From assembly GCA_964625085.1 (NCBI GenBank), contig CAZVAJ010000004.1, positions 28,614 to 60,613 on the forward strand: a stretch of 32,000 nt of DNA, read 5' to 3'. This document shows positions 1,879 to 30,445 of the stretch, piece after piece. The notes below the pieces were generated by a model. It did no database searches. It saw only the letters and a program-made list of their open reading frames with translations, and was not told the origin of the DNA. The DNA is from Candidatus Micrarchaeota archaeon. GTDB taxonomy: Archaea; B1Sed10-29; JAJSAI01. Positions within the stretch are counted from its first letter, which is position 1. Every line of letters starts with the position of its first letter. A program made the position numbers and the translations under genes.

Positions 1879-2286
1879 TCACACAATACTAAAAGAACCC
1901 TCAACCAGCATAGAATACCTTTCGTACAATTTTTTCACCTGCCTTTCCCCAACACGCACCTTGCCAAAACACCTGTGGGGCACAAGGGCTCCTGAAAAAG
2001 TTTTAGGAATGTGCAAGAGCTCGTGAATCAAGGTCTTGTCTTTCTCAGGCTCAGGTAGTTTATCATACCTTTCTGAAATCACTTCTATCACATAGTGGGG
2101 GTCAAGAACAAGCGCAAGCTGCCAAACCTTGGGAAGCTCCCATATCCTCGCAATAGCATTAGTACGTGTCTTGTAACTCCGGATAGCAGTCACCTTAGTG
2201 GCATCAATGTGCCCGAACTCTTCTTCAAGAACTTTGACTATCAAATGAATCTTGTCCTGAACATCTGGAGCAAGTTCTATTTTCAT
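1879..2286 (-). CDS. Predicted zinc metallopeptidase (HExxH; small archaeal COG4900-like family)
   Basis: 135 aa with an HELLH motif followed by IPKTFSG. It is translationally coupled (ATGA at 2283-2286) to the upstream S2P protease gene. Confidence 0.6.
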   Translation of the reverse strand: MKIELAPDVQDKIHLIVKVLEEEFGHIDATKVTAIRSYKTRTNAIARIWELPKVWQLALVLDPHYVIEVISERYDKLPEPEKDKTLIHELLHIPKTFSGALVPHRCFGKVRVGERQVKKLYERYSMLVEGSFSIV

Positions 2287-3353
2287 ATTCCCAACTCCGC
2301 AAGCCTGACCAAACGGTCTAGTGAAAGCTTGTCAACAACCCCTATTATTTTCCTGTTGTGGACAACCGGAATAATCGTGACATTGTACTTGTTCATTCTT
2401 TTCAGGATCGTGTCAAGACTGCTTGCCGGAGAAGCAGGAGGAACATAAACTGAGACCTTCCGCGCGGGAGTATTTGGCCATTCAGTTTTAGGCACTTCTG
2501 AAACGTGCGCCAGCCCTGTCACCCTCACACCCCTGCCTTTAGCATGAACCAGCGCAGAAGTTGCGTTATACCTCATCATCTTTCTGACAAGTTCCAAAAC
2601 AGGCTCTTCTGAATCAACAACAAGAAACATGTTAGTAACAAAATCTCCTGCCTTGTACCGCCTAAGAAGCTTGAGTACTGAAAGTGACTGGTACTCGGCA
2701 GAAGCCCCAAGCATTACAAAAATGCCTATAATTATCAGCCAGATGTTTCCAGCAATAAAGCCCACAATTACCATCAGCATTGAAAGGAATATGCTTATGT
2801 TTCTTGCAATCCTTGTAGCCCGCAAAACCCCTACCTTCATAGCAAGAACCGCGCGAAGCACCCTCCCCCCATCAAGGGGAAAAGCAGGTATGACCAAATT
2901 AAAGAAGCCTAGTATAAAGTTTGCCCAAAAGGCGTAGAACACAGTGAACTCGATCAGGCTAAGATCAGGCACACTGCCTGAAAAAAAGGAATCAAGCCAC
3001 TGCATCAGAGGCATCCCGGACGCAGCCGCTATAACGTAAAACAACGCCATCATCACAAAATTAAAAGCAGGGCCTGCAACAGCCATCACGAACTCGTCCT
3101 TGGGGTTTATGTCCGTGATGTCCATCACAGCCATCCCGCCTATTGGAAGCAGGATTATCTTTTTTACGCTGATCCCTCTTCTTACCGCAACAAGAGAGTG
3201 AGAAAACTCGTGAAGAGTAACAAAAAGGAACACGAACAAAAGCAAGAGCATAAAAGACCAGTCAAGAAGAAGAATCATCAGCAAGAATAACACGAACGAC
3301 CAGTGCAGTTCAAGGTCTATTCCAAACAGCGAAAACAATTTATAGTTTCTCAA
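2283..3353 (-). CDS. Site-2 protease family (M50) intramembrane metalloprotease with C-terminal CBS pair
   Basis: HEFSHSLV (HExxH) lies in a TM helix, and FPLDGGR supplies the third ligand region. The core is polytopic and the tail is CBS-like. Only a TTG start (3351-3353) keeps the conserved N-terminus, because an in-frame stop lies just upstream. Confidence 0.9.
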   Translation of the reverse strand: MRNYKLFSLFGIDLELHWSFVLFLLMILLLDWSFMLLLLFVFLFVTLHEFSHSLVAVRRGISVKKIILLPIGGMAVMDITDINPKDEFVMAVAGPAFNFVMMALFYVIAAASGMPLMQWLDSFFSGSVPDLSLIEFTVFYAFWANFILGFFNLVIPAFPLDGGRVLRAVLAMKVGVLRATRIARNISIFLSMLMVIVGFIAGNIWLIIIGIFVMLGASAEYQSLSVLKLLRRYKAGDFVTNMFLVVDSEEPVLELVRKMMRYNATSALVHAKGRGVRVTGLAHVSEVPKTEWPNTPARKVSVYVPPASPASSLDTILKRMNKYNVTIIPVVHNRKIIGVVDKLSLDRLVRLAELGI

Positions 3354-3366
3354 CCCTCATTCCTCC

Positions 3367-3543
3367 ATGACCGACGTTATGGGCACGTGCGATATATGTG
3401 GTAAACCCAGCAGAACTTTATATACCTGCTGGAAATGTGGCAGGAAAGTGTGCCCAGAGCATCATGATCCTGAAACAGGACTGTGCATAGTATGTGCATC
3501 ACAGCTTAAAAAAGGGGGGCCTGCACCTTGGACAAAGAAATAA
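3367..3543 (+). CDS. Small (58 aa) cysteine-rich zinc-finger protein
   Basis: This ORF is not in the supplied track. It reads MTDVMGTCDICGKPSRTLYTCWKCGRKVCPEHHDPETGLCIVCASQLKKGGPAPWTKK. The spacing CxxC-x8-CxxC-x4-C-x2-HH-x7-CxxC suggests a cross-brace two-zinc module. The gene starts 13 nt from the divergent S2P start. Confidence 0.5.
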   Translation: MTDVMGTCDICGKPSRTLYTCWKCGRKVCPEHHDPETGLCIVCASQLKKGGPAPWTKK

Positions 3544-4664
3544 GGAGCATAAGCTTGCTTTCAGGGTGCTCTCCAGAACGGATAAGATCACTCCTAGAAA
3601 AAGGAGTGTTGCAAAGGGTGGGCATGGATCCTGTTTATTACAGATTCAGACACAGACACAGAAAAATAGAAAAAGGCACAGTTATTTTTCCAGAAGAAAA
3701 AGAGATCATAAAAGGGTACCCGAAAATAAGAAGATTGTACACGCTCGAAAAAGGCCTTGGGAAATACTTTCCTAACAGGTTCTATGCAGAGGAAAAGCTT
3801 GATGGTTACAATGTAAGGGTTGCTCTTGTTGGGAATGAAAAGTACGCGCTTACAAGAGGAGGTGTAATCTGCCCGTACACGACTGAAAGGATAAAAAGAC
3901 AGGAAAAACAGGTGGCAGAATTCCTGGAAGAAAACCCTGAAAAAGTGTTGTGCGGAGAAGTGATAGGACTGGAAAACCCCTACCAGGAAAAAAGTTATCC
4001 TGAAGCAAGAGAATTCGGGTACTACATTTTTGACGTTAGGGACAAGAAAACCAACAAACCCCTTCCGGTAGAGAAGCGCAGGCGCGTGCTAGAAGAACAC
4101 AAGGTGAAACAGGTTCCTTTGCTTGGTTTGTTCAGACCGCGTGACTGGAAAAAACTGCTGACAGAAGTTAGAATGCTAGGAAACCAGGGCAGGGAAGGAG
4201 TAGTACTAAAATCTCCTGACATGAAAACAGTGATAAAGTACACAAGCAACCAGAACACGAACAGGGACCTTGAGTACGCTTTCAGATTCTACTCTGACTA
4301 CGGGCAGGCTTTCTTCTTCAGGAGAATAGTCAGAGAAGCTTTCCAGGCGTGGGAAACAGGCCTGGAAGGAAAAGCACTTGAGCAGGAAGCAGCCAGGCTG
4401 GGCAAAAGCATCATGTTTCCAATGGTGCAGACAATTCGGGAGATCGCTAACGGGAAAGAGGTTACAGAAGACTTTACGATAACCATGCCCTCCCGCAAGT
4501 TAGGGGAAGAATTTATCCAGCACCTTGAGCACCTCGGGATAGTCATAAGGGTGAACAAGATAGAAAAAACAAAAGAAGGCTACAAGTTCTGGATAAGCAG
4601 AAGGTACCAGAGCACGAATGACAAAACCAAACATTACATAGACGGAGGGCTTAGCGAGGAATGA
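3528..4664 (+). CDS. ATP-dependent RNA ligase, archaeal Rnl3 (Pab1020-like) family
   Basis: The nucleotidyl-transferase motif I is EEKLDGYNVRV (the KxDG lysine). LTRGGVICPYTTERI and the N-terminal domain are colinear with my recollection of Pyrococcus Pab1020. The start is either TTG 3528 or the in-frame TTG 3555, which is preceded by AAGGAG. Confidence 0.88.
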   Translation: MDKEIRSISLLSGCSPERIRSLLEKGVLQRVGMDPVYYRFRHRHRKIEKGTVIFPEEKEIIKGYPKIRRLYTLEKGLGKYFPNRFYAEEKLDGYNVRVALVGNEKYALTRGGVICPYTTERIKRQEKQVAEFLEENPEKVLCGEVIGLENPYQEKSYPEAREFGYYIFDVRDKKTNKPLPVEKRRRVLEEHKVKQVPLLGLFRPRDWKKLLTEVRMLGNQGREGVVLKSPDMKTVIKYTSNQNTNRDLEYAFRFYSDYGQAFFFRRIVREAFQAWETGLEGKALEQEAARLGKSIMFPMVQTIREIANGKEVTEDFTITMPSRKLGEEFIQHLEHLGIVIRVNKIEKTKEGYKFWISRRYQSTNDKTKHYIDGGLSEE

Positions 4665-20196: not shown

Positions 20197-20787
20197 TCAC
20201 TTCTTGGATAATTCTTTCAGTAGTTCTGGAAAGCTCTCTGCATGAATGAACCTGATTCCCCACTTGTCAGCCCATTCCATTATTCCCTTGTCCCTGGAAA
20301 CAACTCCTGCGTCAAGCTCTTTTGCAAGAAATAGCACATCAAGATCCTCTTTAGAGTCTACGATTCCCTGCCGCATTATTATCTTGAAATTCTGCCTAAG
20401 CTCTCTAAGCACGATGTCATCAGGCCTGTTTTCCCCCTTCTTGAAAACTGCTTTCTCTGCTTCACGCAGGGCCTTGTTCATCCGGTCCCTTATTTCTGAA
20501 ATGTACTCGTAAACGAACTCGGCAGGAACCATCAGCTCCCTTCTAGAAGGGGACTTCTGAACCAACCGCGCGTCAAGCGTTTTTATGAGCTTTTCAGTGT
20601 ACCCTGACCTCTCGAGCATGCCTTTAAGTTCGTTCCATACTGCCGGGGGAGTGTAACAAGTTATGCTGTGCTTTCTAGCATTGCCCAATAATTTTACCAT
20701 CAGCTTAACGTGCTTCAAGTCAGCTTTTTTTGATTCTCCGACTCCTATAAAAGCACTGGTGTCAATAACAAACCTCTGCCGTTTCAT
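20197..20787 (-). CDS. HARP-type protein-only RNase P (PIN-like; formerly annotated as RNA ligase partner MJ_0950/UPF0278 family)
   Basis: 196 aa. N-terminal FVIDTSAF, then VPAEFVYEYISEIRDRMNKALREAE and RQGIVDSKEDLDVLFLAKELDAGVVSRDKGIMEWADKWGIRFI. These align closely with my recollection of Aquifex aeolicus Aq_880. Confidence 0.82.
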   Translation of the reverse strand: MKRQRFVIDTSAFIGVGESKKADLKHVKLMVKLLGNARKHSITCYTPPAVWNELKGMLERSGYTEKLIKTLDARLVQKSPSRRELMVPAEFVYEYISEIRDRMNKALREAEKAVFKKGENRPDDIVLRELRQNFKIIMRQGIVDSKEDLDVLFLAKELDAGVVSRDKGIMEWADKWGIRFIHAESFPELLKELSKK

Positions 20788-20894: not shown

Positions 20895-21014
20895 TGCTCG
20901 GCGGCCACAGCGGGCGGGAAACACCCGGTCTCTTTCCGAACCCGGAAGTTAAGCCGTCCAGCGATCTTGTGTGTACTGCCCTCTTGGGCGGGAAAGCAAG
21001 GACGCTGCCGAGCA
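20895..21014 (+). rRNA. 5S ribosomal RNA (archaeal type)
   Basis: The terminal helix pairs GCUCGGCGG with CUGCCGAGC. The conserved CCGAACCCGGAAGUUAAGC and GUACUGCC elements are present. About 120 nt. The ends are approximate to +/-2 nt. Confidence 0.95.
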
Positions 21015-21023: not shown

Positions 21024-21854
21024 TTACACCCCGTACTTTTTTTTCACTTGCTTCCAATCTGGAATAAGCTTAAGCCTGTCTTTCCTCAGCTTTTTGTACT
21101 CTTCCACAGTCAGCCCTGCTGCCTCTGCCCTTTTAGTGACAGCACGCGTAATTGCTTCAGGAGGTTCAAAAAATTCTTTTGCGTACTCTCTTATGCCCTT
21201 GTCCCAGTATTTTTTGGGGTTTTTCGTCTTTGCTATCTCCTGGACCAACTCTTTTTTGAGCTTTTCAAGCGCAGGGTTTTCAAGGGGACTGTACCCTGCA
21301 AACAGTTCGGAAAGCTCTTCCCCGACCACCTGTTCTTTCACTTGGGCATGAAGCTCCTCTGAACTTATGATGGCAGGCCCGTGAGAAGCAAAAGAACCGC
21401 CGCCCTCCTGGTTTTTTTCCTTCAGGAAATGGTCTGAAAGGCGTCTTACGCCGCTGGCCTTTTTTTCAGGCAGGCGTTTTTTAGTGATTATAATATAGTC
21501 AACATCGCTTTCTGGATGAGCGTAACCTCCTGCTCTGCTTCCACTAACAACAATCCCAATAAAATCTGGACCGAGCTCCTGCTTAAGCTTCTCGTGTAAT
21601 TCAGGAAGATCTTTTAGCATAAGTTTTATTGTCCGGCCTTTATCCCTGCTGAGGATTATAGGAAACTTTCTTGTTCTTCTTATCTCTAATTCGCTTTCAG
21701 CCCGCAGTTCATCTATCTTTTTTCGCACATCGTAGTACTCTTCAGGATTCTTGTACTTTCCAAGAGCAAGGTCTTTTTTGGCCTTGTTCTCGAGCAAGTC
21801 CAGTAAATGCTCCCGTACTTTCATCCCGAACGATTTTCTGGTTTTTTTACGCAT
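21024..21854 (-). CDS. Pol-beta-superfamily (minimal) nucleotidyltransferase-domain protein with helical extensions
   Basis: GIVVSGSRAGGYAHPESDVDYIIIT carries the GS...DxD signature. The start is placed at ATG 21854 (or 21824). The K/R-rich extension to 21962 is the alternative-frame reading of the upstream gene's Glu-rich tail. Confidence 0.65.
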   Translation of the reverse strand: MRKKTRKSFGMKVREHLLDLLENKAKKDLALGKYKNPEEYYDVRKKIDELRAESELEIRRTRKFPIILSRDKGRTIKLMLKDLPELHEKLKQELGPDFIGIVVSGSRAGGYAHPESDVDYIIITKKRLPEKKASGVRRLSDHFLKEKNQEGGGSFASHGPAIISSEELHAQVKEQVVGEELSELFAGYSPLENPALEKLKKELVQEIAKTKNPKKYWDKGIREYAKEFFEPPEAITRAVTKRAEAAGLTVEEYKKLRKDRLKLIPDWKQVKKKYGV

Positions 21855-21903
21855 AACCTCACGCGAACCATGCTCCCAAAAGAAGGAAGATTGGAAGGGG
21901 TTT

Positions 21904-23265
21904 TCAGAAGGGCTTGTATTCTTCCTCTTCTGGTGTTTCCTCTTCCTCTTCAGGCATTTCAAGCTCTTCAGGCTTTTTTCTCAAAAGCTTGAGAGAAGCT
22001 ATCAAAAGAACCAACACTACTACAACTATTCCTGCATACAGCAGCGTGTTGTCTGCTTTCGGAACTTCCTCTTCTTCTTCCCCTGTTTCATTAGGCTTGC
22101 TCAAAAGAAGCTCTGTCTTGCTGGCTTTGGGGTTCTCTGCTAGCACGCTCAGGTTGTATAACACTTTTTCTCCTGTTCTTAAGGCAATAGCCTGAGAGCT
22201 AAGCACTTCAGACAACTGCTTGGCATTGGCGTCCTTTATCAGATCATAACAGGCCTTCGCGTTTAGCAAAGTGTCTGCTGCTTCTGAGCCTGTTAGTGAA
22301 AGCGAGGCAGTAACATACTCTTTCGCGCACTTGTAGTACGCATCTTCCCGGATTTTTTTTCCGCTTTCTGTTTTATCCCTGTACATACAGTCTCCTGCGC
22401 TCTTGTATGCTGCACCTGCGTCCTCATACTTTCCAACCTGCTCGTAGATGTTTGCTGCTGCTGCATAGTGTTCCCAGCACTTTTGCATTTCAAGCGTTGT
22501 TTTAGGAGTCTTGTAGCAGCTTCCTGCTCCTGCAGAGTAGTCTGCTATTCTGCTTCCGCTTGTAACATCTATTGCTTTGCCAAAAGCCTGGTCGCATTTT
22601 TCAGGATCTCTTGAATAATCCCTGTAGCAGATTCCTGCTTTTGAATAGTTTTCAGCAGCTTGCGCAGGATATGTTTCTTTTATCAGGTCGCCTAGCGCTT
22701 CGTATACAGGACAAAGTTCCTTTCCGACCCTTCCAGCTTCTCCGTACGCTATTGCATGGTTATAGTACTCTAATGCTGTTGAAGGTTCATTGTTCTGCTC
22801 TGCCTCAACTGCTGCACCAAGAGCTGCTTTAAACGCGTTATCCTCATCTCCTGCGTCCCGGTAGCACTGAAAGGAAACAGAGTATGCTGAAACAGCATCA
22901 TTATGCATGGAAAGTCCTTTGTATAACTCTGCCGCGCTTAAAGCTTCATCGCCGCAGGACCTTGGCTTGTCAGCCCGGTAATACTGTGCTGCAAGCAGGT
23001 AATCCTGAGCAGCCTGCTCTTGCTCTCCTGCGTTAATCAGGTTCTCTGCTGCAAGAGAATAGTACTGCGCTGCTTGCGTGCTCTTACCATCATCCGCGTA
23101 GCATTCTGCAGCCTGCTCGTACGCTGCTGCTGCACTAGAGTAGTCTCCGACCGCGAGCGCGCTCTCTGCACTGTCTATATACTGAGAACATGCTGAAGCA
23201 GCAAAAGAAGCAGTCATGAACACTGCAATTAACAATGTGAAAGCGAGTGGGATTTTTCCTTTCAT
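21904..23265 (-). CDS. Cys-rich SNAP/TPR-like repeat surface protein (signal peptide, C-terminal TM anchor, acidic tail)
   Basis: N-terminal MKGKIPLAFTLLIAVFMTASFAASAC looks like a signal peptide, possibly with a lipobox Cys. Repeated A-x2-Y-x2-AA-x-CY-x-D-x-G helical hairpin motifs follow. There are 12 Cys. The C-terminus has a TM segment (LLYAGIVVVVLVLLIASL) and an EEEEE-rich tail. GGTGG SD precedes the start. Confidence 0.7.
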   Translation of the reverse strand: MKGKIPLAFTLLIAVFMTASFAASACSQYIDSAESALAVGDYSSAAAAYEQAAECYADDGKSTQAAQYYSLAAENLINAGEQEQAAQDYLLAAQYYRADKPRSCGDEALSAAELYKGLSMHNDAVSAYSVSFQCYRDAGDEDNAFKAALGAAVEAEQNNEPSTALEYYNHAIAYGEAGRVGKELCPVYEALGDLIKETYPAQAAENYSKAGICYRDYSRDPEKCDQAFGKAIDVTSGSRIADYSAGAGSCYKTPKTTLEMQKCWEHYAAAANIYEQVGKYEDAGAAYKSAGDCMYRDKTESGKKIREDAYYKCAKEYVTASLSLTGSEAADTLLNAKACYDLIKDANAKQLSEVLSSQAIALRTGEKVLYNLSVLAENPKASKTELLLSKPNETGEEEEEVPKADNTLLYAGIVVVVLVLLIASLKLLRKKPEELEMPEEEEETPEEEEYKPF

Positions 23266-23330
23266 TTTATACCACCGTACAGTAATTAAATCAACTCACG
23301 CAATGTTTTAAAAGGTTTCGCTGGATGAGA

Positions 23331-24191
23331 CTAGTAGTACGCTGACCTTATTGTGGAATAGATGTGCACACTGGAAAATAACAGGAACATCACTGCAGTA
23401 TATGGTGAGAACACCCCTCCTCCAAGCACTTCATAGTACATGTGAGGATCTTGTAGGATAAACCCGCTAACAGCAAGAAAAGACGCCAGAGTAACTGTTG
23501 ACAGCAGAACTACCCCTAGCAAAAACCGGTAGCAGTTTGACATAGGATGCTTATTCAAAGAAGCAGTTATAACTGCGGCAGAGAACAGTACAAAAAGCAG
23601 GGAGGTCACAATATTTTGGCCAAGCACCCTCCCGGACGCCGCGAATAGCATGTTTGCAACCGCGGACGCCATAACAGCCAGTAAGATAGCTCTTGCTAGA
23701 TTGCTAAAACCTTTAAAGAACAAGACCGAGCCCACTGCCGCAAACACAAACATGCCTGAAGTAAGCATGCCATAACCCAGCAGATCATAACCTAAGTACC
23801 CAAACAGGAACAGGATCAGGGACAGGGACAATAACAATCCTGCCAAAAAAACTTCCGTGTTCAGGGATAATGCTCCCTTCTCTTTTGTCCTTTGGGATAA
23901 CACTCCTGCTGCATTATACAAGTAGTATGAACAGACAACTCCTGCCAAGCCTGACAGAAACAGAAAGAACAGCAAGGCATGCGTCTCCGAGTATACTCCT
24001 CCAGAAAGAAGTATCAACGATGAACTTGAAACAGTCACTCCAAGAAGACTAACTGAAACCGCGGCCCATGCGCTGCTTTTCCCTATAATTGACCCCTTGA
24101 CTTGGAGGTAGAACATCAAAAAGAATATTGAAGTCGCAAGGATCATTCCAGACCCGAAAAGCCAAAGCAGTAATGCAGCAATATATTTCAT
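23331..24191 (-). CDS. Polytopic membrane protein (about 8 TM), unknown function
   Basis: 286 aa, almost entirely hydrophobic helices. GAGGTG SD is present, and only 3 nt separate it from the upstream stop. Confidence 0.7.
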   Translation of the reverse strand: MKYIAALLLWLFGSGMILATSIFFLMFYLQVKGSIIGKSSAWAAVSVSLLGVTVSSSSLILLSGGVYSETHALLFFLFLSGLAGVVCSYYLYNAAGVLSQRTKEKGALSLNTEVFLAGLLLSLSLILFLFGYLGYDLLGYGMLTSGMFVFAAVGSVLFFKGFSNLARAILLAVMASAVANMLFAASGRVLGQNIVTSLLFVLFSAAVITASLNKHPMSNCYRFLLGVVLLSTVTLASFLAVSGFILQDPHMYYEVLGGGVFSPYTAVMFLLFSSVHIYSTIRSAYY

Positions 24192-24194
24192 TTC

Positions 24195-24836
24195 CTACAC
24201 CTCAAAAATTTTATCCGCCATGCTCATCAAAAAATTTTTGATTCTTCCGCTCCCTGCAACAGGAACTGACAAAAGTATAACTATCGCTCCTTTCTTCCGG
24301 GTGTTTGACAAAAGCCGGTGTAAAAACTTCATTGTATCTTGTTCTGAGTTGTACACTGGGAGAACTGCGACAGAGTCAAACAACGCAATCACTCCTTTAT
24401 CCAGACTTCCGGAGATCTTCATCATAAGCTCATTCAAACTGGCAGGAGACTTTACCATGACAACATTCCTTCCAGGAGATTCCTTTGAACTGCTAAGCCC
24501 GGAAGCAGCATCAATAACCTTGAAGTTCTCCAGTATTTGGGGGTCTATAGAGGATGAGGGCCTTGAAAGGGAAACCAAAATTTTCTTAGCCTTTTTTTCT
24601 AGGAGGGTTGAAAGGACACTATTAAACGCAGAATTGTACTTGCCTATATCATTAATCACTACGAGTGCCACAAATCCTGGACGCGCATCTTGCAGCAGTC
24701 CGCTTGCAGAAAACTTTTCAACAGAAGATCTGAGGAAGTTCCCAACAACTTCTTCCTGACTCTGCATGCTCATTGTATCTGTAGGCACAAGCAAAAAAAG
24801 TGCAGAAAGTATAAAAAAGGTTCTGTTCTCTTTCAT
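24195..24836 (-). CDS. Membrane-anchored or secreted P-loop-less RecA/KaiC-like (DUF835-like) domain protein
   Basis: The start at ATG 24836 forms an ATGA overlap with the upstream gene. The N-terminal hydrophobic segment is FFILSALFLLVP. The body follows the KaiC-like strand/helix pattern (ILVSLSRP, VIDAAS, VMVKSPASLNEL, IALFDSVAVL, KFLHRL, AIVILLSVP) but has no GxxxxGK[ST]. Confidence 0.55.
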   Translation of the reverse strand: MKENRTFFILSALFLLVPTDTMSMQSQEEVVGNFLRSSVEKFSASGLLQDARPGFVALVVINDIGKYNSAFNSVLSTLLEKKAKKILVSLSRPSSSIDPQILENFKVIDAASGLSSSKESPGRNVVMVKSPASLNELMMKISGSLDKGVIALFDSVAVLPVYNSEQDTMKFLHRLLSNTRKKGAIVILLSVPVAGSGRIKNFLMSMADKIFEV

Positions 24837-25075
24837 TTCTTGCTTTTTTTGCCGGGCTTTATGAAAACGTCTGCAACTATCTTGGCAACCAGCACCAAAA
24901 TAAGAAGGTACATGGGATACCACCACAGGTCAGTTTTAGGCGGAATTGTGTTTGTTATTGCCAGCGTGTACCACTGTCCTGCAACAAACATGAACAGGGT
25001 GTACCCCACAAAAAACAGCAGCATGTCTTTTATTGCAACCCACACGTCCTTTACTTCTGGTCCGATTATTGCCAT
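24833..25075 (-). CDS. Small membrane protein (80 aa, 2 TM, basic C-terminus)
   Basis: It is the first gene of the minus-strand cluster. A TATA-like ATTATAAT lies about 30 nt upstream, and the stop overlaps the next start. Confidence 0.55.
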   Translation of the reverse strand: MAIIGPEVKDVWVAIKDMLLFFVGYTLFMFVAGQWYTLAITNTIPPKTDLWWYPMYLLILVLVAKIVADVFIKPGKKSKK

Positions 25076-25140
25076 GGTACTATTTTGAGGTTTGGGGGAT
25101 TATAATTGTTTCGAAACAGCTTTTAAGCCCTTCATGCCCT

Positions 25141-25734
25141 TTAGTCCTTTTCCAGCACCCAGAACACCTTTTCTTCACGCGTTCCAGGCATAAAAACATG
25201 CGTGCTCTTCTTAAACCCTGCTTTTTTGAACGCGCGTTCCACTATCCTGGTTTCTTCTTTTGTTTTAGGATAGAACTGGACCACTGCAACCCCCTTCTTT
25301 TTTAGTACTCTGTAAAATTCTGACGCGGTTTTCTGATAGTTTGCTATAATTTCCTCTCTTGATTTTCCGGTTATCCACTGTAAGGCAGAAATGCATACTA
25401 TGGCGCTGAAGCTTTCGTCAGGAAAAGGAATGCTTCGCATGTCTGCTTTTTTTACTTGCAGTCCTTTTGCTTTTGCTATGTCAAGCATGGGCTGGGAAAC
25501 GTCTATTCCTACGACAGAGTATCCTTTTTCTTTCAGGACTTCTGTAGAGAATCCTGTTCCGCAACCAACATCAAGTACACGGCCTTTTGATATTCTTCTG
25601 GACTTCAGCAGCTTTGCCGCGAACGCTGTCATCTCCTGCTGTACCTGCTTCATTCTCCTGCTTTTCTCATAGTTTTCAGCGGTCTCTTTGGAGAAGTATA
25701 CTTCAGGATAGTAATAACGCAGTTCCCAGGGCAT
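25141..25734 (-). CDS. Bud23/WBSCR22-like class I SAM methyltransferase (candidate SSU rRNA m7G methyltransferase)
   Basis: YPEVYFSKETAENYEKSRRMKQVQQEMTAFAAKLL, VLDVGCGTGFS, VVGIDVSQPML, IPFPDESFSAIVCISALQWI and VVQFYPKTKEE...KAGF are colinear with my recollection of yeast Bud23 and human WBSCR22. It lacks their basic C-terminal extension. Confidence 0.75.
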   Translation of the reverse strand: MPWELRYYYPEVYFSKETAENYEKSRRMKQVQQEMTAFAAKLLKSRRISKGRVLDVGCGTGFSTEVLKEKGYSVVGIDVSQPMLDIAKAKGLQVKKADMRSIPFPDESFSAIVCISALQWITGKSREEIIANYQKTASEFYRVLKKKGVAVVQFYPKTKEETRIVERAFKKAGFKKSTHVFMPGTREEKVFWVLEKD

Positions 25735-25741
25735 TATCCTT

Positions 25742-26107
25742 TCATTCCTTCAGTTGCTGGAGTTCCTGCTTAAGCTCGTCTAAAGCCCTCTGCAGCTCAT
25801 TAATCCTTCTGCTTATGCTTTCAACACTGCTGTCCACGTTCTTTTCCTGCACTACCGCCACTGTTGAAGCAGCAGAGGGAACCATCTGCTGTTCTTCTTC
25901 AATTGGTTTGGCGTCCCAAACGCTCTTAGGCGGCTTCATGCTCGGAGGTATCACAACAAGTTTTCTTTCTTTCGCTGCTCCGGCAGGGGGCTTCCAGAAA
26001 AGTTCCTCTCTTTCCCTCTGTTTTTGTTTGTTTTTCTCCTGAACTTCTTTTATTCTCTGCTGCGCTTCATGCTCATACTTTGAGATTATGTCAGACATGA
26101 GGGACAT
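25742..26107 (-). CDS. Hypothetical coiled-coil protein
   Basis: 121 aa. Heptad-like charged helices sit at both ends (QQRIKEVQEKNKQKQREREE; INELQRALDELKQELQQLKE), with a Pro-rich middle. It lies between the zinc-ribbon gene and the methyltransferase. Confidence 0.55.
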   Translation of the reverse strand: MSLMSDIISKYEHEAQQRIKEVQEKNKQKQREREELFWKPPAGAAKERKLVVIPPSMKPPKSVWDAKPIEEEQQMVPSAASTVAVVQEKNVDSSVESISRRINELQRALDELKQELQQLKE

Positions 26108-26130: not shown

Positions 26131-26490
26131 TTATAAATCTTTCGCGGAAGACGCTATTTTTTGGTTAAGAGTATACATGTCCCCTGATTTTTCTATAACC
26201 TTCATTTTTTCAAGCTCTGGGAGGTCCTTTTCAGATTCTTTCCCGGACAAGAAAGTAAGCTCAGAGTAAGTTCTGTCTTTCACCGCCAGCATCTTCAGTG
26301 CTTTTCTGGCTGCAGGCGAAAGTTTTTTCCACAGGCCAGGAAAAGAAAGAACCTTAAGCTCCCCGTAGCTGTCTAGAGAAATGAACGACGGAGTGCTGCA
26401 CTGTCTGCATATCACCCAGTCAAAAAACGTTTCGTCAGAAAGGAATGCCTTCAGGGTCGTGCTACATTCAGGACACTTCGCAATTATCAT
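26131..26490 (-). CDS. Zinc-ribbon plus winged-helix-like small protein
   Basis: The N-terminal CPEC-x18-CRQC forms a zinc ribbon. The C-terminal LKMLAVKDRTYSELTFLSGK...LEKMKVIEKSGDMYTL is wHTH-like. Confidence 0.55.
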   Translation of the reverse strand: MIIAKCPECSTTLKAFLSDETFFDWVICRQCSTPSFISLDSYGELKVLSFPGLWKKLSPAARKALKMLAVKDRTYSELTFLSGKESEKDLPELEKMKVIEKSGDMYTLNQKIASSAKDL

Positions 26491-27584: not shown

Positions 27585-29063
27585 ATGACCAACAAAACAA
27601 AGTATGATAAAATAATGGAAAAAATGCTCAAACGAGCTTTCTTTTACCCCAGTTCTGAAATCTACGGAGGATTCTCAGGCTTGTACGATTACGGGTCAAC
27701 AGGCACCAGGATAAAACTAAAGTGGGAAGATTACTGGCGGAAACATTTCCTTGGGCTTGGGGATTCTTTTTACGAGATCCAGCCCGCGAACATCATGCCA
27801 GAACCGGTATTCGAGGCTTCAGGCCATCTTAAGGAATTCGTGGACCCTCTTGTACAGTGCTCGAAATGCGGGTACTACGAAAGAGCAGACACAATTCTTG
27901 AAGACCAGCTTAAGCAGACGTTTGAAGGAATAACCCCTGAAGAGCTTGACCAGCTCATAAAAAAGAACAAGATCACCTGCCCGAAATGCAAGGGTAGGCT
28001 GAAAGAAGTAACAGTGCTTAATCTGATGTTCAATTTTGACGTTGGAATATTCCATTCTGTGACAAAAGGGTATCTGAGGCCTGAAACTGCACAGGGAGCA
28101 TACGTGTGCTTCAGAAGAGAATACAAAGCAAACAGGGAAAGAATGCCGTTAGGCCTTGCGGTTATTGGGAAAGCGTACCGGAACGAGATATCTCCCCGGC
28201 AGGGACTGTTTAGAATGAGGGAGTTCACGCAGGCAGAACTGCAGATCTTTTTTGATCCTGACAAGATAAACGAGCACCCGCGGTTTGAGGAAGTGAAAGA
28301 CAAAAAGCTCAGGATAGTTCCTGCAAACGAGAGGGACAAGGGCGAGCAACTGCTCTCGTGCCAGGAGCTCGTGGAAAAAGGGTATCCTAAGTTCGCTGTG
28401 CACTATATGGCCAGAGTCCAAGAGTTTTACGAGTCTTTGAAAGTGCCCTTGGAAAAGTTCCGGTTCTACGAGAAGAACGAGCAGGAAAGAGCGTTCTATA
28501 ACCTGCTTCACTTTGATGTTGAAGTTTTTCTTGATTCATTCGGGAAGTACACGGAGCTGGCTGGATTCCACTACAGAGGAGATCATGACCTGAAAGGCCA
28601 TCAGAAGGTTTCAGGAGAGGACATGAGTGTTGTAAAGGAAGGTAAAAGGTTCATTCCGCACGTGCTAGAACTCAGTTTTGGGGTGGACCGGAACGTGTTC
28701 GCCCTCTTTGACATAGGATACAAGGAAGAAGGGAAAAGACAGTGGTTCTCTCTGCCTGCATTTGTTTCCCCGTGGACCGCTGGCATCTACCCGCTGGTTA
28801 AAAGGGACGGGCTTGACAAAAAAGCAAAAGAAATCAAGAACCTGCTTTTAAGAGAAGGTATTGACGTGTTCTATGACGAAAGAGGGTCTGTTGGAAAAAG
28901 GTATGCCCGGGCTGATGAAATAGGCGTAGCGTACGGGATAACGATAGACTATGACACAATGCAGGACGATACTGTGACAATTAGGTTCAGGGACTCAACA
29001 GAACAAGAAAGGGTGAACGTGGCAGAACTTGCTGAAAGAATAAAAAAACTACAAGGCATGTGA
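27585..29063 (+). CDS. glyS: Glycine--tRNA ligase (archaeal/eukaryotic alpha2 type)
   Basis: FFYPSSEIYGG, YLRPETAQG, GKAYRNEISPRQGLFRMREFTQAE (class II motif 2), SFGVDR (motif 3), and a C-terminal anticodon-binding domain. Confidence 0.95.
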   Translation: MTNKTKYDKIMEKMLKRAFFYPSSEIYGGFSGLYDYGSTGTRIKLKWEDYWRKHFLGLGDSFYEIQPANIMPEPVFEASGHLKEFVDPLVQCSKCGYYERADTILEDQLKQTFEGITPEELDQLIKKNKITCPKCKGRLKEVTVLNLMFNFDVGIFHSVTKGYLRPETAQGAYVCFRREYKANRERMPLGLAVIGKAYRNEISPRQGLFRMREFTQAELQIFFDPDKINEHPRFEEVKDKKLRIVPANERDKGEQLLSCQELVEKGYPKFAVHYMARVQEFYESLKVPLEKFRFYEKNEQERAFYNLLHFDVEVFLDSFGKYTELAGFHYRGDHDLKGHQKVSGEDMSVVKEGKRFIPHVLELSFGVDRNVFALFDIGYKEEGKRQWFSLPAFVSPWTAGIYPLVKRDGLDKKAKEIKNLLLREGIDVFYDERGSVGKRYARADEIGVAYGITIDYDTMQDDTVTIRFRDSTEQERVNVAELAERIKKLQGM

Positions 29064-29792
29064 TTCTTCCTGTTCCTTAAGCGCGGTAAGCAGGTCAATT
29101 ATTTCTATTCCTCTGCAGGTTATCTCATAAGGGAACCACTTCAGAGGATGAGACTGGTTAGCCATCCGTGTTATCCTGAGCTTGTGCTTTGCGCCCGAGT
29201 TCATGATCTCTAATGCACTATCACACAAGTAGGAGAGAGTAGTTTCCACCTCATCAGAGTGAACCCCTTCTTCCAAAATGAACAAAGATACTGTATTATG
29301 TTCTTTCAGGACCCCTGTAAACACCTGCATAAACTTGAAAAACCTGCCAGTATCCTCTGATGACTGCAAGAGCACGTCAGTCAGCGAGTCGAACACAACC
29401 CTCCCAGGCTTCTTGCTCCCGAACCCTGCTTCTGAAAGCGCGGTCTTCACAACGTCCGTGATCTCGTTAAAATTGGAAAGGCTGGAGATCTTCAGCATGC
29501 TTTTTGTCCTGCTGGTCCTCCAGGAGTACGCGTCAACAAACACAATCCTTTCCAAGTCCTCTTCCGTGATCTTAAGATCAAAATTCAACAGGGCCTGTTT
29601 ACACTGCTCAAACTTTTCTCCAGTGGAAACAAAAACAACCTTCTCTCCCCTGCGCAAACCCTCTGCCAAAAACTGCCTTGCAAACGTTGTTTTCCCGCAA
29701 CCCGGAGGCCCTACCAAAAGAACTGAAGACGGCAGCATAAAACCTCCTGCAAGAATCTCATCTAACCTTCGGATGCCCGTGGAAATCCTCAA
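29049..29792 (-). CDS. KaiC/RadA-like single-domain ATPase
   Basis: STGIRRLDEILAGG, Walker A GPPGCGKTT, Walker B VVFDSL. The TTG start overlaps the upstream stop (TTGA). The 3' end overlaps glyS by 15 nt, convergently. Confidence 0.82.
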   Translation of the reverse strand: MRISTGIRRLDEILAGGFMLPSSVLLVGPPGCGKTTFARQFLAEGLRRGEKVVFVSTGEKFEQCKQALLNFDLKITEEDLERIVFVDAYSWRTSRTKSMLKISSLSNFNEITDVVKTALSEAGFGSKKPGRVVFDSLTDVLLQSSEDTGRFFKFMQVFTGVLKEHNTVSLFILEEGVHSDEVETTLSYLCDSALEIMNSGAKHKLRITRMANQSHPLKWFPYEITCRGIEIIDLLTALKEQEESHAL

Positions 29793-30445
29793 TCTATCAC
29801 GTCCAAAAGCTTAAGTCTTCTTCCATCATATTCTCCCATGAAAATGCGCCTGGCCTTGTTAGGCAGTCCTGCTTTTATGATAATCTTTTCTTCTGCCCTC
29901 CTGAACAAAATCTCCCCATCTGCTTTCTTCCTGAGAACAGGACTGCCTGGCCCTGTCCTTACCACAAAGACACAAGAAGAACCAAACTCCTTGGCTGTTC
30001 TAGAAAGCCTTGAAACAAACCAAGAAACACTGGTCTTAGAGTAGCTGTTCGTAATCCGGTTAAAAGAATCCATAACAAGAAGCGCTGGAGGAACATCTGC
30101 AGCCTTGAATTCTCTGGCAACCTGGTAGTATAATTCTTTCAGCGTAAGATCCTTCTCCTCAAAATCATACTCGTACAAGTCAAAAAACCGGGCTGTTTCT
30201 TTTTCAAGCAAACTAGCCAAGGCCTTTCTTCCAATAAGCTGCGTGAACATCGGGATCATGTCCGAACTTGGCCTGTCAAGACTAACAAACAGTGCAGGAT
30301 TGCCTCTTCTCACGTTTGACGCGAACATCTTGCTAGAAAAGTATGTTTTCCCAGTATGCTTAGGCCCTGACACCAAAAGAGAAGTTCTAGAAGGAATTCC
30401 TCCAATAGCCCTGTCAATCACCTTGAACCCTGTCCAAAGCCTCAT
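29789..30445 (-). CDS. KaiC/RadA-like single-domain ATPase, divergent paralogue
   Basis: TGFKVIDRAIGG, Walker A SGPKHTGKT, Walker B-like LLVMDSF. It is the first gene of the pair. Confidence 0.72.
   Translation of the reverse strand: MRLWTGFKVIDRAIGGIPSRTSLLVSGPKHTGKTYFSSKMFASNVRRGNPALFVSLDRPSSDMIPMFTQLIGRKALASLLEKETARFFDLYEYDFEEKDLTLKELYYQVAREFKAADVPPALLVMDSFNRITNSYSKTSVSWFVSRLSRTAKEFGSSCVFVVRTGPGSPVLRKKADGEILFRRAEEKIIIKAGLPNKARRIFMGEYDGRRLKLLDVID

What the first reader, a model, noticed from the sequence alone, without database searches (positions are those of the whole stretch)
21024..25075. Five-gene same-strand cluster of uncharacterised membrane, surface and nucleotidyltransferase proteins
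All five genes are on the minus strand, in this order: an 80-aa 2-TM protein; a membrane-anchored P-loop-less KaiC/RecA-like domain (ATGA overlap); an 8-TM protein (3-nt gap, GAGGTG SD); after 65 nt, a 453-aa Cys-rich SNAP/TPR-like ectodomain protein with a TM anchor and poly-Glu tail; and a Pol-beta-type minimal nucleotidyltransferase. None maps to a pathway I recognise. The combination is an envelope-exposed repeat protein, a polytopic membrane partner, a degenerate ATPase-like scaffold and a cytoplasmic nucleotidyltransferase. That looks like a dedicated envelope or signalling module rather than a chance arrangement. In a putative small-genome symbiotic archaeon, such cell-surface modules are candidates for host interaction.
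Basis: inference. Interest (0 to 1): 0.7.

Follow-up and report, generated by a model that had tools for sequence, protein, structure and literature searches.

The report
Mosaic gene run, not one module
The five neighbouring genes are real, but relatives of this uncultured DPANN archaeon (phylum Iainarchaeota) show they are not one unit: an old pairing of a tiny membrane protein with a disulfide-stapled surface repeat protein has had a two-gene pair and a lone nucleotidyltransferase inserted into it.

Summary
All five minus-strand ORFs exist at the stated coordinates, and most of the descriptions hold.

- **g5 (nucleotidyltransferase):** absent from the closest relative (g4 63% identical). There g4 is followed directly by a convergent 5S rRNA gene. 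In the window g5 sits between g4 and that 5S gene.
- **g2-g3 (degenerate KaiC-like protein plus 8-9-TM protein):** found only in the window lineage and that one relative. They are translationally coupled in both. They are missing from three other lineages that keep g1 and g4.
- **g1 (80-aa, 2-TM) and g4:** they co-occur in five lineages. They are adjacent in two, together with an upstream coiled-coil gene.
- **Promoters:** g1 and g4 each have a conserved TATA-like box of their own.
- **g4 itself:** it founds a small family, with seven further members found here. Each complete member has a signal peptide, about nine TPR/SNAP-like hairpins, six hairpin disulfides, a C-terminal TM helix and an acidic tail. 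The disulfides are supported by paired cysteine loss.
- **g2 membrane anchor:** not supported.

Function is still inferred. g4 is most likely a membrane-tethered protein-binding scaffold on the outer face of the membrane, possibly working with g1. Nothing found here points to a role in host contact. Interest is modest.

The parts
24833..25075 (-). g1: 80-aa protein with two TM helices and a Trp/Tyr-rich outer loop (GQWYTL...DLWWYP). It is the most conserved gene of the run.
   Evidence: ORF; TM helices. It is 80% and 74% identical in L003 and L005. Distant homologs of 67 aa in L009 and 71 aa in L012 were found by tblastn and HMM. No Pfam, NCBIfam, PADLOC or PHROGs hit.
25100..25112 (-). TATA-like box GAAACAATTATAA, 24 nt upstream of the g1 ATG. 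This is a putative g1 promoter giving a leaderless or short-leader transcript.
   Evidence: Sequence. The same 13-mer lies at the same distance in L005, and a TTAAAAA box is in register in L003. It occurs once in the window. Function is inferred, not shown.
24195..24836 (-). g2: cytoplasmic, Walker-A-less KaiC/RecA-like (iKaiC, DUF7504/DUF835-like) protein. The likely true start is the ATG at 24773, giving 192 aa.
   Evidence: Pfam DUF7504 E = 1.4e-4 and DUF835 E = 1.2e-3, both below cutoff. The ortholog carries the same precomputed hits. The ortholog starts at the M22 equivalent, and a TATA-like box follows the g1 stop in both genomes. The AlphaFold2 model is an alpha/beta fold (pLDDT 73.7). 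Its best TM-scores are to PH0250 (0.57) and to FlaH (0.50), which I know to be KaiC-like; no match has E < 1e-3.
23331..24191 (-). g3: orphan polytopic membrane protein with 8-9 TM helices, translationally coupled to g2.
   Evidence: TM segments. There is a 3-nt gap with GAGGTG in the window and a 4-nt overlap in L003. It is 41% identical in L003. No family hit apart from DUF5883 at E = 0.06. No homolog in any other locus.
23306..23314 (-). TATA-like box CTTTTAAAA upstream of g4, followed by a GGTGGT Shine-Dalgarno sequence. This is a putative g4 promoter.
   Evidence: The box and GGTGGT are conserved in register in the window and L003 (both after g3) and in L005 (after g1). L009 has TATTTATAAA plus GGAGGT. 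The motif count in the window alone is not above chance, so the evidence is positional conservation.
21904..23265 (-). g4: type-I membrane protein. It has a signal peptide, about nine TPR/SNAP-like helical hairpins with six hairpin disulfides, the motif LAENP, a Glu-rich stalk, a TM helix and an acidic cytoplasmic tail ending in an aromatic residue.
   Evidence: AlphaFold2 pLDDT 85.9, with 17 helices between residues 26 and 364 and a TM helix at 407-428. Foldseek matches generic TPR solenoids, with gamma-SNAP at TMt 0.58. The family profile matches consensus TPR at 1e-24 and gamma-SNAP at 5e-8. Eight Cys are invariant in 8 members, and the pairs C104/C134 and C263/C293 are lost together.
21024..21854 (-). 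g5: 276-aa nucleotidyltransferase of the Pol-beta/NTP_transf_2 superfamily. It is a lineage-specific insertion between g4 and the 5S rRNA gene.
   Evidence: Pfam NTP_transf_2 at 25.3 bits, above the cutoff of 21. The motif GSRAGGYAHPESDVDY is visible. No homolog in L003, L005, L009 or L012. In L003 and L009 the 5S gene follows g4 directly. No plasmid, viral or PHROGs relatives.
20897..21013 (+). 5S rRNA gene, convergent with the gene run. It marks the ancestral downstream boundary of g4.
   Evidence: Rfam RF00001 at 82.8 bits. It has the same convergent position after g4 homologs in L003, L009 and L012.
25742..26107 (-). cc121: 121-aa protein with an N-terminal helix, a Pro-rich linker and a C-terminal coiled coil. 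It lies outside the finding but is syntenic with g1 and g4 in every lineage that has g1.
   Evidence: Homologs lie upstream of g1 in L003, L005, L009 and L012. Only weak coiled-coil matches were found.
26131..26490 (-). zn119: 119-aa protein with a four-Cys zinc-ribbon-like N-terminus (CPEC...C..C) and a possible winged-helix C-terminus. It lies upstream of cc121.
   Evidence: Homologs in L003 and L012, with the 4 Cys invariant. Only weak Pfam and PDB hints.
25141..25734 (-). Class I SAM-dependent methyltransferase between cc121 and g1. It is a variable insert, not part of the conserved block.
   Evidence: Pfam Methyltransf_11 E = 2e-22. It is present in L003 but absent between cc and g1 in L005 and L009.

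Best explanation
The five genes are a mosaic of three independently acquired and independently promoted units on a housekeeping stretch of an Iainarchaeota (DPANN) chromosome.

1. **Ancestral block.** This lineage-restricted syntenic block reads zn119, cc121, g1, g4, convergent 5S rRNA. g4 is a type-I membrane protein. Its ectodomain is a TPR/SNAP-like superhelix of about nine hairpins, stapled by six intra-hairpin disulfides. A short Glu-rich stalk and one TM helix hold it near the membrane, and an acidic tail faces the cytoplasm. I infer that it acts as a protein- or peptide-binding scaffold on the outer face of the membrane. I also infer that the highly conserved 2-TM protein g1 is its most likely membrane partner.
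2. **g2-g3 pair.** This is a translationally coupled pair made of an inactivated KaiC-like cytoplasmic domain and an 8-9-TM protein. It was inserted between g1 and g4 in one sublineage. By analogy with DUF835/iKaiC domains in archaeal signalling proteins, I infer a self-contained membrane sensor or scaffold unit.
3. **g5.** This solo Pol-beta-superfamily nucleotidyltransferase was inserted between g4 and the 5S rRNA gene in the window's lineage only. It is probably unrelated to the rest.

Shown here: gene content, variable composition, fold class, the cysteine pattern and the conserved promoter-like boxes. Inferred: all functions and the g1-g4 partnership.
For: **Variable composition**
- L003 (g4 63% identical) has g1, g2, g3 and g4 but no g5. 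Its 5S rRNA gene lies 53 nt after g4, followed by a nitroreductase gene.
- L005 (g4 42% identical) has cc, then g1, then g4 directly, with 51 nt between g1 and g4.
- L009 (g4 27%, g1 33% identical) has cc, g1, g4 and 5S adjacent.
- L012 has zn, cc, g1, g4 and 5S in the same order, but seven unrelated genes lie between g1 and g4.
- g2, g3 and g5 homologs are absent from L005, L009, L010, L012 and L014.

**Separate promoters**
- TATA-like boxes are conserved in register upstream of g1 and of g4, whatever gene precedes them.
- A TATA-like box follows the g1 stop, ahead of g2, in both genomes that have g2.

**g2-g3 coupling**
- The gap is 3 nt with a Shine-Dalgarno sequence in the window, and the genes overlap by 4 nt in L003.

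**g4 topology and fold**
- The model is confident (pLDDT 85.9) and matches TPR/SNAP solenoids.
- Each of the 12 Cys sits near the start or the end of one of two consecutive helices.
- The pairs C104/C134 and C263/C293 are lost together in family members.
- The TM helix is followed by RKK and then an acidic tail.

**g2 as an inactivated KaiC domain**
- Sub-threshold DUF7504 and DUF835 hits in both orthologs.
- The Walker A site reads INDIGKYN in the window and NNVSEYS in L003.
- The best structural matches by TM-score are PH0250 and FlaH.
- DUF835 is listed as iKaiC in PMC5847659.
Against: - The four genes g1-g4 are kept together in the two genomes that have all of them. A lineage-specific four-gene complex is therefore not excluded. 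The whole 20-kb region is syntenic between those genomes, so this says little either way.
- The g1-g4 association could be inherited synteny alone. The functionally unrelated 5S rRNA gene is retained next to g4 just as faithfully. In L012, g1 and g4 are 2.8 kb apart. In L010 and L014 no g1 homolog lies within the locus.
- Promoter boxes were identified by eye and by conservation, not by transcript data. The CTTTTAAAW count in the window is at the chance level.
- Only seven or eight genomic contexts could be examined, and the taxonomy of L009-L014 was not established.
- The g2 fold search gave no hit with E < 1e-3.
Confidence: 0.6

Rival explanations
1. One reading: all five genes form one dedicated envelope or signalling module, co-expressed and co-functional, possibly mediating host interaction in a symbiotic archaeon.
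For: - All five genes are on the same strand with short gaps.
- Four of the five proteins are membrane or envelope proteins, or could plausibly associate with the membrane.
- The organism is DPANN-related.
Against: - g5 is absent from the nearest relative.
- g2 and g3 are absent from three lineages that keep g1 and g4.
- Promoter-like boxes lie inside the run.
- The same-strand run extends to ten genes, including a methyltransferase, a PIN_5 nuclease and an amidohydrolase.
- There is no adhesin-like or host-interaction domain.
Confidence: 0.07
2. A lineage-specific four-gene membrane complex in order B1Sed1-29. The g2-g3 pair was recruited to the older g1/g4 pair, and all four now work together. 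In one version g3 is a polytopic partner of the g4 anchor and g2 is a cytoplasmic scaffold for the g4 acidic tail.
For: - g1, g2, g3 and g4 are retained in the same order in the window and in L003, despite 41-80% protein identity.
- The insertion lies exactly between the two conserved membrane genes.
- g2 is net basic (+6) and the g4 tail is strongly acidic.
Against: - Only two genomes carry the arrangement, and their whole region is syntenic, so retention is uninformative.
- g4 keeps its own promoter box whether g3 or g1 precedes it.
- The g1-to-g4 interval and the g4-to-5S interval both accept unrelated insertions in other lineages.
Confidence: 0.2
3. There are no functional links at all. 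Every adjacency, including g1 with g4, is residual synteny in slowly rearranging small genomes, and each gene acts alone.
For: - The 5S rRNA gene, PIN_5 and the AMP-phosphorylase/R15P-isomerase genes are also syntenic with g4 across lineages.
- g1 and g4 are separated by seven genes in L012.
- g4 homologs in L010 and L014 have no g1 nearby.
- g1 and g4 have separate promoters.
Against: - cc, g1 and g4 remain directly adjacent in L009 at only 27-33% identity, while the upstream flank is different.
- g2 and g3 are translationally coupled in both genomes, which is hard to explain without co-function.
Confidence: 0.13

Closest known systems
TPR superfamily solenoids, including alpha/gamma-SNAP (Sec17; Pfam PF14938)
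   Same: g4 passes the Pfam SNAP cutoff (35.6 bits against 25). The family profile matches consensus TPR proteins (1e-24), gamma-SNAP (5e-8) and Sec17 (1e-7). The model is a right-handed stack of helical hairpins, and its best TM-score (TMt 0.58) is to gamma-SNAP.
   Different: From my own knowledge, SNAPs are cytosolic eukaryotic adaptors for NSF and SNARE complexes, without signal peptide, disulfides or TM anchor. g4 has a signal peptide, 12 conserved Cys, a C-terminal TM anchor and an extracytoplasmic location. The overall TM-scores are low (0.3-0.58), so this is fold-class similarity only.
Helicobacter cysteine-rich proteins (HcpA/B/C), which are secreted Sel1-like-repeat proteins
   Same: Both are extracytoplasmic alpha/alpha-repeat solenoids in which each hairpin is cross-linked by a disulfide. 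The HcpB description is from my own knowledge.
   Different: There was no Sel1 (PF08238) hit among the Pfam results at E <= 1. g4 is membrane-anchored, has an acidic cytoplasmic tail, and is archaeal. The resemblance is analogous rather than homologous.
Inactivated KaiC (iKaiC) domains of archaeal signalling proteins: DUF835 (PF05763), DUF7504 (PF24336), MEDS
   Same: g2 and its ortholog give DUF7504 and DUF835 hits. They lack a Walker A motif but keep an hhhhD Walker-B-like strand. The predicted fold is alpha/beta, closest by TM-score to PH0250 and to FlaH, which I know to be KaiC-like. DUF835 is catalogued as an iKaiC output domain of archaeal response regulators (PMC5847659).
   Different: The hits are below the Pfam cutoffs. 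g2 is a stand-alone protein coupled to a separate polytopic membrane protein, not fused to REC or PAS domains. It shows no detectable similarity to the two KaiC-like ATPases elsewhere in the window.
Minimal nucleotidyltransferases (MNT/MntA) of HEPN-MNT toxin-antitoxin systems, and ANT-type aminoglycoside nucleotidyltransferases
   Same: g5 has the NTP_transf_2 core with the G-S...D-x-D motif. It has weak matches to MntA, ANT(9) and PADLOC PDC-S09 over the core only.
   Different: g5 is 276 aa, with helical N- and C-terminal extensions of about 80 and 110 aa. No HEPN partner is adjacent, because the next feature is the 5S rRNA gene. All family-specific scores are far below their cutoffs.

Membership tests
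Conserved five-gene module (operon-like unit) | The five families co-occur as neighbours in other genomes. | tested here: not met
   g5 is absent from L003. g2, g3 and g5 are absent from L005, L009, L012, L010 and L014.
Conserved five-gene module (operon-like unit) | A single transcription unit with no internal promoters. | tested here: inconclusive
   Conserved TATA-like boxes upstream of g1 and g4, and a box after the g1 stop ahead of g2, argue against one unit. No transcript data are available.
g1-g4 conserved pair (with cc121) | Co-occurrence in the same neighbourhood across divergent genomes. | tested here: met
   They are adjacent in L005 and L009, separated by g2-g3 in the window and L003, and 2.8 kb apart in L012. 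No g1 lies nearby in L010 or L014. The 5S rRNA gene is equally syntenic, so co-function is not proven.
SNAP (PF14938) / TPR superfamily | Profile match above the curated cutoff and a helical-hairpin solenoid fold. | tested here: met
   Pfam SNAP at 35.6 bits against a cutoff of 25. PDB profile hits to consensus TPR, gamma-SNAP and Sec17. AlphaFold2 model plus Foldseek matches.
SNAP (functional family: NSF/SNARE adaptor) | A cytosolic location. That SNAPs act with NSF-type ATPases and SNAREs is from my own knowledge. | tested here: not met
   g4 has a signal peptide, a C-terminal TM anchor and six covarying Cys pairs, which place the domain outside the cell. Whether NSF or SNARE partners are present was not examined.
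Sel1-like repeat / Hcp cysteine-rich proteins | A match to the Sel1 repeat profile (PF08238). | tested here: not met
   No Sel1 hit among the Pfam results at E <= 1, and none among the PDB profile hits.
Sel1-like repeat / Hcp cysteine-rich proteins | A disulfide staple within each alpha/alpha hairpin. | tested here: met
   The Cys pairs are spaced 26-30 residues apart, one Cys near the start or end of each of two consecutive helices. The pairs 104/134 and 263/293 are lost together. The disulfides were not shown chemically.
iKaiC (DUF835 / DUF7504) | Profile match above the curated cutoff. | tested here: not met
   DUF7504 at 22.8 bits against 27, and DUF835 at 19 bits against 33.1. The ortholog has weak or faint precomputed hits.
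iKaiC (DUF835 / DUF7504) | A RecA/KaiC-like alpha/beta fold with a degenerate Walker A motif. | tested here: inconclusive
   The model has pLDDT 73.7. Its best TM-scores are to PH0250 (0.57) and FlaH (0.50), with RecA, Rho and KaiC also in the list, but no match has E < 1e-3. The Walker A motif is not conserved between the orthologs.
NTP_transf_2 / Pol-beta nucleotidyltransferase superfamily | Profile match above the cutoff, and the catalytic hG[GS]...D-x-[DE] motif. | tested here: met
   25.3 bits against a cutoff of 21. The motif GSRAGGYAHPESDVDY is present.
HEPN-MNT toxin-antitoxin pair | An adjacent HEPN-domain partner gene. | tested here: not met
   The neighbours of g5 are g4 and the 5S rRNA gene. 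The MntA model scores 16.1 bits against a cutoff of 60.

The most novel reading that the evidence does not exclude
cc121, g1 and g4 form a surface complex specific to Iainarchaeota that has not been described. A disulfide-stapled TPR receptor is held at the membrane by a conserved 2-TM partner. Its acidic, aromatic-ended cytoplasmic tail couples it to a coiled-coil protein. The complex is used for cell-cell (host) contact or as a new kind of archaeal chaperone acting outside the cytoplasm. In one order it acquired an iKaiC-plus-polytopic signalling pair.
Probability: 0.15. Interest if true: 0.55.

Novelty: new member of a known kind. Interest (0 to 1): 0.28.

Why it matters
The practical result is negative. 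Same-strand adjacency in a compact archaeal genome was read as a module, and a handful of related contigs shows that it is a patchwork. That saves follow-up effort on a five-protein complex that probably does not exist.

What remains is modest:
- a small, lineage-restricted family of disulfide-stapled, membrane-anchored TPR-like ectodomain proteins;
- a very conserved 2-TM neighbour of that protein;
- a translationally coupled pair of an inactivated KaiC-like protein and a polytopic membrane protein.

DPANN surface biology is poorly understood. These are reasonable targets for complex prediction or proteomics, but nothing here points to a specific new mechanism.

Tried and rejected
**Database searches that found little**
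- Word-indexed homolog searches for g4, g1 and g2 returned only 2-3 clusters each.
- Genome and metagenome pattern scans with g1 returned only the same loci.
g3 was therefore never searched at full sensitivity.

**Defence or mobile-element origin**
- PADLOC gave only a weak hit on the g5 core, PDC-S09 at 5e-6.
- PHROGs gave nothing.
- Plasmid tblastn for g5 gave nothing.
- Viral-contig scans for g5 and g3 gave nothing. The g4 family alignment was too divergent to scan.

**Other sequence comparisons**
- g2 shows no significant similarity to the window's two KaiC-like ATPases.
- PDB sequence searches for g5, g2, cc121 and zn119 gave nothing informative.

**Functional hints from neighbours of distant g4 relatives**
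- I looked for hints of export or quality-control roles. One relative is followed by a Band_7 gene (L010), and one by LemA and a Peptidase_M48 gene (L014).
- For a shorter cousin family, one context shows SecF-SecD (L015) and two show TGT (L019, L022).
- The pattern does not recur, so I did not build on it.

**Rejected readings**
- I considered g2 plus g3 as a split DUF835-type membrane protein. This could not be tested, because no g3 homologs were available.
- I rejected a lipobox in g4: the sequences ASAC and ASVC before the first Cys do not fit the canonical lipobox pattern.

Full report
**1. What is in the window**

Region 21024-25075 holds five minus-strand ORFs at the stated coordinates.
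- g1: 24833-25075, 80 aa.
- g2: 24195-24836, 213 aa from the ATG that overlaps the g1 stop.
- g3: 23331-24191, 286 aa.
- g4: 21904-23265, 453 aa.
- g5: 21024-21854, 276 aa. This is the start used by public gene calls; the longest ORF reaches 21962.

Hydropathy gives two TM helices in g1 and eight clear helices plus a possible ninth in g3. In g4 it gives a signal-like N-terminal helix and one C-terminal TM helix. It gives none in g2 or g5.

Pfam results:
- g4: SNAP at 35.6 bits (cutoff 25).
- g5: NTP_transf_2 at 25.3 bits (cutoff 21).
- g2: sub-threshold DUF7504 (E = 1.4e-4) and DUF835 (E = 1.2e-3).
- g1: no hit. g3: only DUF5883 at E = 0.06.

NCBIfam, PADLOC and PHROGs add nothing specific.

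Two things were missed. First, the same-strand run covers ten protein genes from 26490 to 19093. They are a Zn-ribbon protein, a coiled-coil protein, a methyltransferase, g1-g5, a PIN_5 nuclease and an amidohydrolase. Second, a 5S rRNA gene lies on the opposite strand at 20897-21013, 10 nt from the g5 stop.

**2. Source organism**

The window is part of a 61-kb metagenomic contig. It carries archaeal housekeeping genes: MCM, eIF-1A, eIF-2 beta, ProRS, GlnA, AMP phosphorylase and ribose-1,5-bisphosphate isomerase.

The only close relative among GTDB species representatives is MAG Dive96_bin4.413, from a Southwest Indian Ridge hydrothermal vent. Its authors classify it as Iainarchaeota, order B1Sed1-29 (PMC9769843 supplement). 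NCBI places that phylum in the kingdom Nanobdellati, and the paper found (PMC10936187) treats it as part of the DPANN archaea.

**3. Test of neighbourhood conservation**

| Locus | g4 identity | Arrangement |
|---|---|---|
| L003 (Dive96_bin4.413) | 63% | g1 (80%), g2 (51%), g3 (41%), g4, then 5S rRNA 53 nt after g4 on the opposite strand, then a nitroreductase. No g5. |
| L005 (2.2-kb contig) | 42% | Coiled-coil gene, g1 (74%), then g4 after 51 nt. No methyltransferase, g2 or g3. |
| L009 | 27% (g1 33%) | Coiled-coil gene, a 67-aa g1, g4, then convergent 5S rRNA 18 nt later. The upstream flank is different (FEN1, SpoU). |
| L012 | 26% | Zn-ribbon gene, coiled-coil gene, g1, g4 and 5S in the same order, then PIN_5 and AMP phosphorylase. 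Seven unrelated genes (TrmB, HicA and others) lie between g1 and g4, and an 82-aa ORF lies between g4 and 5S. |
| L010 | 29% | g4 is followed by a Band_7 gene. No g1 or coiled-coil gene in the locus. |
| L014 | 27% | g4 is followed by LemA and a Peptidase_M48 gene. No g1 or coiled-coil gene in the locus. |

Three conclusions follow.
- g5 is an insertion between g4 and the 5S gene, specific to the window's lineage.
- g2-g3 is an insertion between g1 and g4, shared by only two genomes.
- The old, lineage-restricted block is (zn119)-cc121-g1-g4-5S. The g1-to-g4 and g4-to-5S intervals repeatedly accept foreign genes.

**4. Transcription signals**

Upstream of g4, a CTTTTAAA(A/T) box lies about 40-48 nt before the start codon and a GGTGGT Shine-Dalgarno sequence about 10 nt before it. 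Both are conserved in register in the window and L003, where g3 precedes g4. They are also conserved in L005, where g1 precedes g4. L009 has a TATTTATAAA box and GGAGGT.

Upstream of g1, GAAACAATTATAA lies 24 nt before the ATG in the window and in L005. L003 has TTAAAAA in register.

Directly after the g1 stop, both g2-bearing genomes have a T-rich TATA-like box ahead of the ATG that corresponds to M22 of the window ORF.

These are inferences from conservation. The motif count in the window alone is at the chance level. They indicate at least three promoters inside the 'cluster'.

**5. Start and anchor of g2**

The ortholog begins at the residue aligned with M22. Its upstream in-frame sequence is not hydrophobic. 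The window's extra 21 residues contain only an 11-12-residue hydrophobic stretch, which fails a TM threshold. g2 is therefore most likely a soluble protein of 192 aa, and the ATGA overlap with g1 is probably an artefact of choosing the longest ORF.

By contrast, g2 and g3 are tightly coupled in both genomes, with a 3-nt gap in the window and a 4-nt overlap in L003.

**6. g4**

The AlphaFold2 model from a two-sequence alignment is confident (mean pLDDT 85.9, above 90 over most of residues 30-380). It shows 17 helices between residues 26 and 364, a disordered Glu-rich stalk, a TM helix at 407-428 and a disordered tail.

Foldseek finds only generic TPR solenoids: LGN, SPY, kinesin light chain and gamma-SNAP (TMt up to 0.58). 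The family profile matches consensus TPR proteins (1e-24), gamma-SNAP (5e-8) and Sec17 (1e-7).

A full HMMER scan of 1.84 billion representatives found five further full-length relatives (E from 1e-32 to 5e-17, 24-28% identical). Every complete member has a signal peptide, a C-terminal TM helix and a charged, mostly acidic tail. The tail often ends in W or F.

Eight cysteines are invariant in eight sequences. The other four form two pairs that are lost together: C104/C134 in two members, and C263/C293 in one. Each of the 12 Cys sits near the start or the end of one of two consecutive helices.

From this I infer six intra-hairpin disulfides and hence an extracytoplasmic ectodomain. The design is analogous to the Helicobacter Hcp proteins (my own knowledge), but there is no Sel1 profile match.

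**7. g2, g3 and g5**

- **g2:** The model is an alpha/beta fold of moderate confidence (pLDDT 73.7). Its best TM-scores are to P. horikoshii PH0250 (0.57) and to FlaH (0.50), which I know to be KaiC-like. Other P-loop NTPases follow, but no match has E < 1e-3. The Walker A position is not conserved between the orthologs, while the hhhhD strand is. DUF835 is catalogued as an inactivated KaiC output domain in archaeal signalling (PMC5847659).
- **g3:** It remains an orphan. I could not search it at full sensitivity.
- **g5:** It has the G-S...D-x-D nucleotidyltransferase core with long helical extensions. It has no HEPN neighbour and no relatives in the plasmid or viral collections.

**8. Interpretation**

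The best-supported reading is a mosaic of three units.
- An ancestral g1/g4 pair, with cc121 and zn119 upstream.
- An inserted, self-contained g2-g3 pair.
- An unrelated solo nucleotidyltransferase.

For g4 I propose a membrane-tethered protein- or peptide-binding scaffold on the outer face of the membrane, with g1 as its most plausible membrane partner. That rests on fold class, topology and co-occurrence only. The equally faithful synteny of the 5S rRNA gene warns that adjacency here may reflect slow genome rearrangement rather than co-function.

Neighbourhood hints towards membrane-protein biogenesis or quality control did not recur. They were Band_7, LemA with M48, and SecDF next to a shorter cousin family. 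No evidence bears on host interaction.

**9. Verdict**

- The five-gene-module interpretation is not supported as stated.
- The individual proteins are uncharacterised, lineage-restricted members of known superfamilies.
- Interest is modest (0.28).

Noticed in passing
window 20897-21013 (+); L003 8122-8238; L009 5819-5932; L012 9665-9781: No 16S or 23S rRNA gene was detected near the 5S rRNA gene in any locus scanned. It lies convergent to, and just downstream of, the g4-family gene in four divergent lineages. The spacer between them has accepted different insertions: the nucleotidyltransferase in the window and an 82-aa ORF in L012.
   Followed up: partly
window 25742-26107 (-) and 26131-26490 (-): Two small genes stay syntenic upstream of g1 across lineages. 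One encodes a coiled-coil protein with the conserved motifs M.LM..I..KYE.EAQQ and LFWKPP...KPPKS.WDAKP. The other encodes a four-Cys zinc-ribbon protein. No family could be assigned to either.
   Followed up: partly
window 29049-29792 (-) and 29789-30445 (-): Two tandem KaiC-like ATPase genes (PF06745; one also hits DUF7504) overlap by 4 nt, about 4 kb from g2. They show no detectable pairwise similarity to g2.
   Followed up: partly
window 3528-4664 (+) and 20197-20787 (-): A Pab1020-type RNA ligase gene (RNA_ligase plus Lig_C) and the 'RNA ligase partner protein' gene (PIN_5, TIGR03875) are both present, but they are about 16 kb apart and not adjacent.
   Followed up: no
window 1879-2286 (-), next to 2283-3353 (-): A 135-aa ORF matches the 'putative phage metallopeptidase' family (PF18894, E = 7e-19). 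It overlaps by 4 nt the start of an M50 site-2-protease-like gene with CBS domains.
   Followed up: no
proteins P0023, P0026, P0027, P0032, P0035-P0037, P0040; loci L015, L019, L022: A shorter cousin family (232-276 aa) is found in other archaeal contigs. Its members have a signal peptide, the motif C..Y...AE..PPYPNYFGAAGEY.HAA.CY, about four SNAP-like hairpins, a TM helix and a basic tail ending KEKLAKKLREKYxPK. The family sits next to TGT (two contexts) or SecF-SecD (one context).
   Followed up: partly
L010 7140-7946; L014 9342-10946: The two most distant g4-family genes are each followed within 40 nt by genes for membrane-organisation or quality-control proteins: Band_7 (SPFH) in one case, and LemA plus a Peptidase_M48 in the other. 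With only one observation each, this was not used as evidence.
   Followed up: no
window 21904-21990 (C-terminus of g4) and family members: The cytoplasmic tail of g4 is nearly identical between the window and L003 (RKKPEE(E)LEMPEEEE.T..EEEY.PF). In five of the seven complete family members the tail ends in an aromatic residue (F or W). This suggests a docking peptide for an unknown cytoplasmic partner.
   Followed up: no
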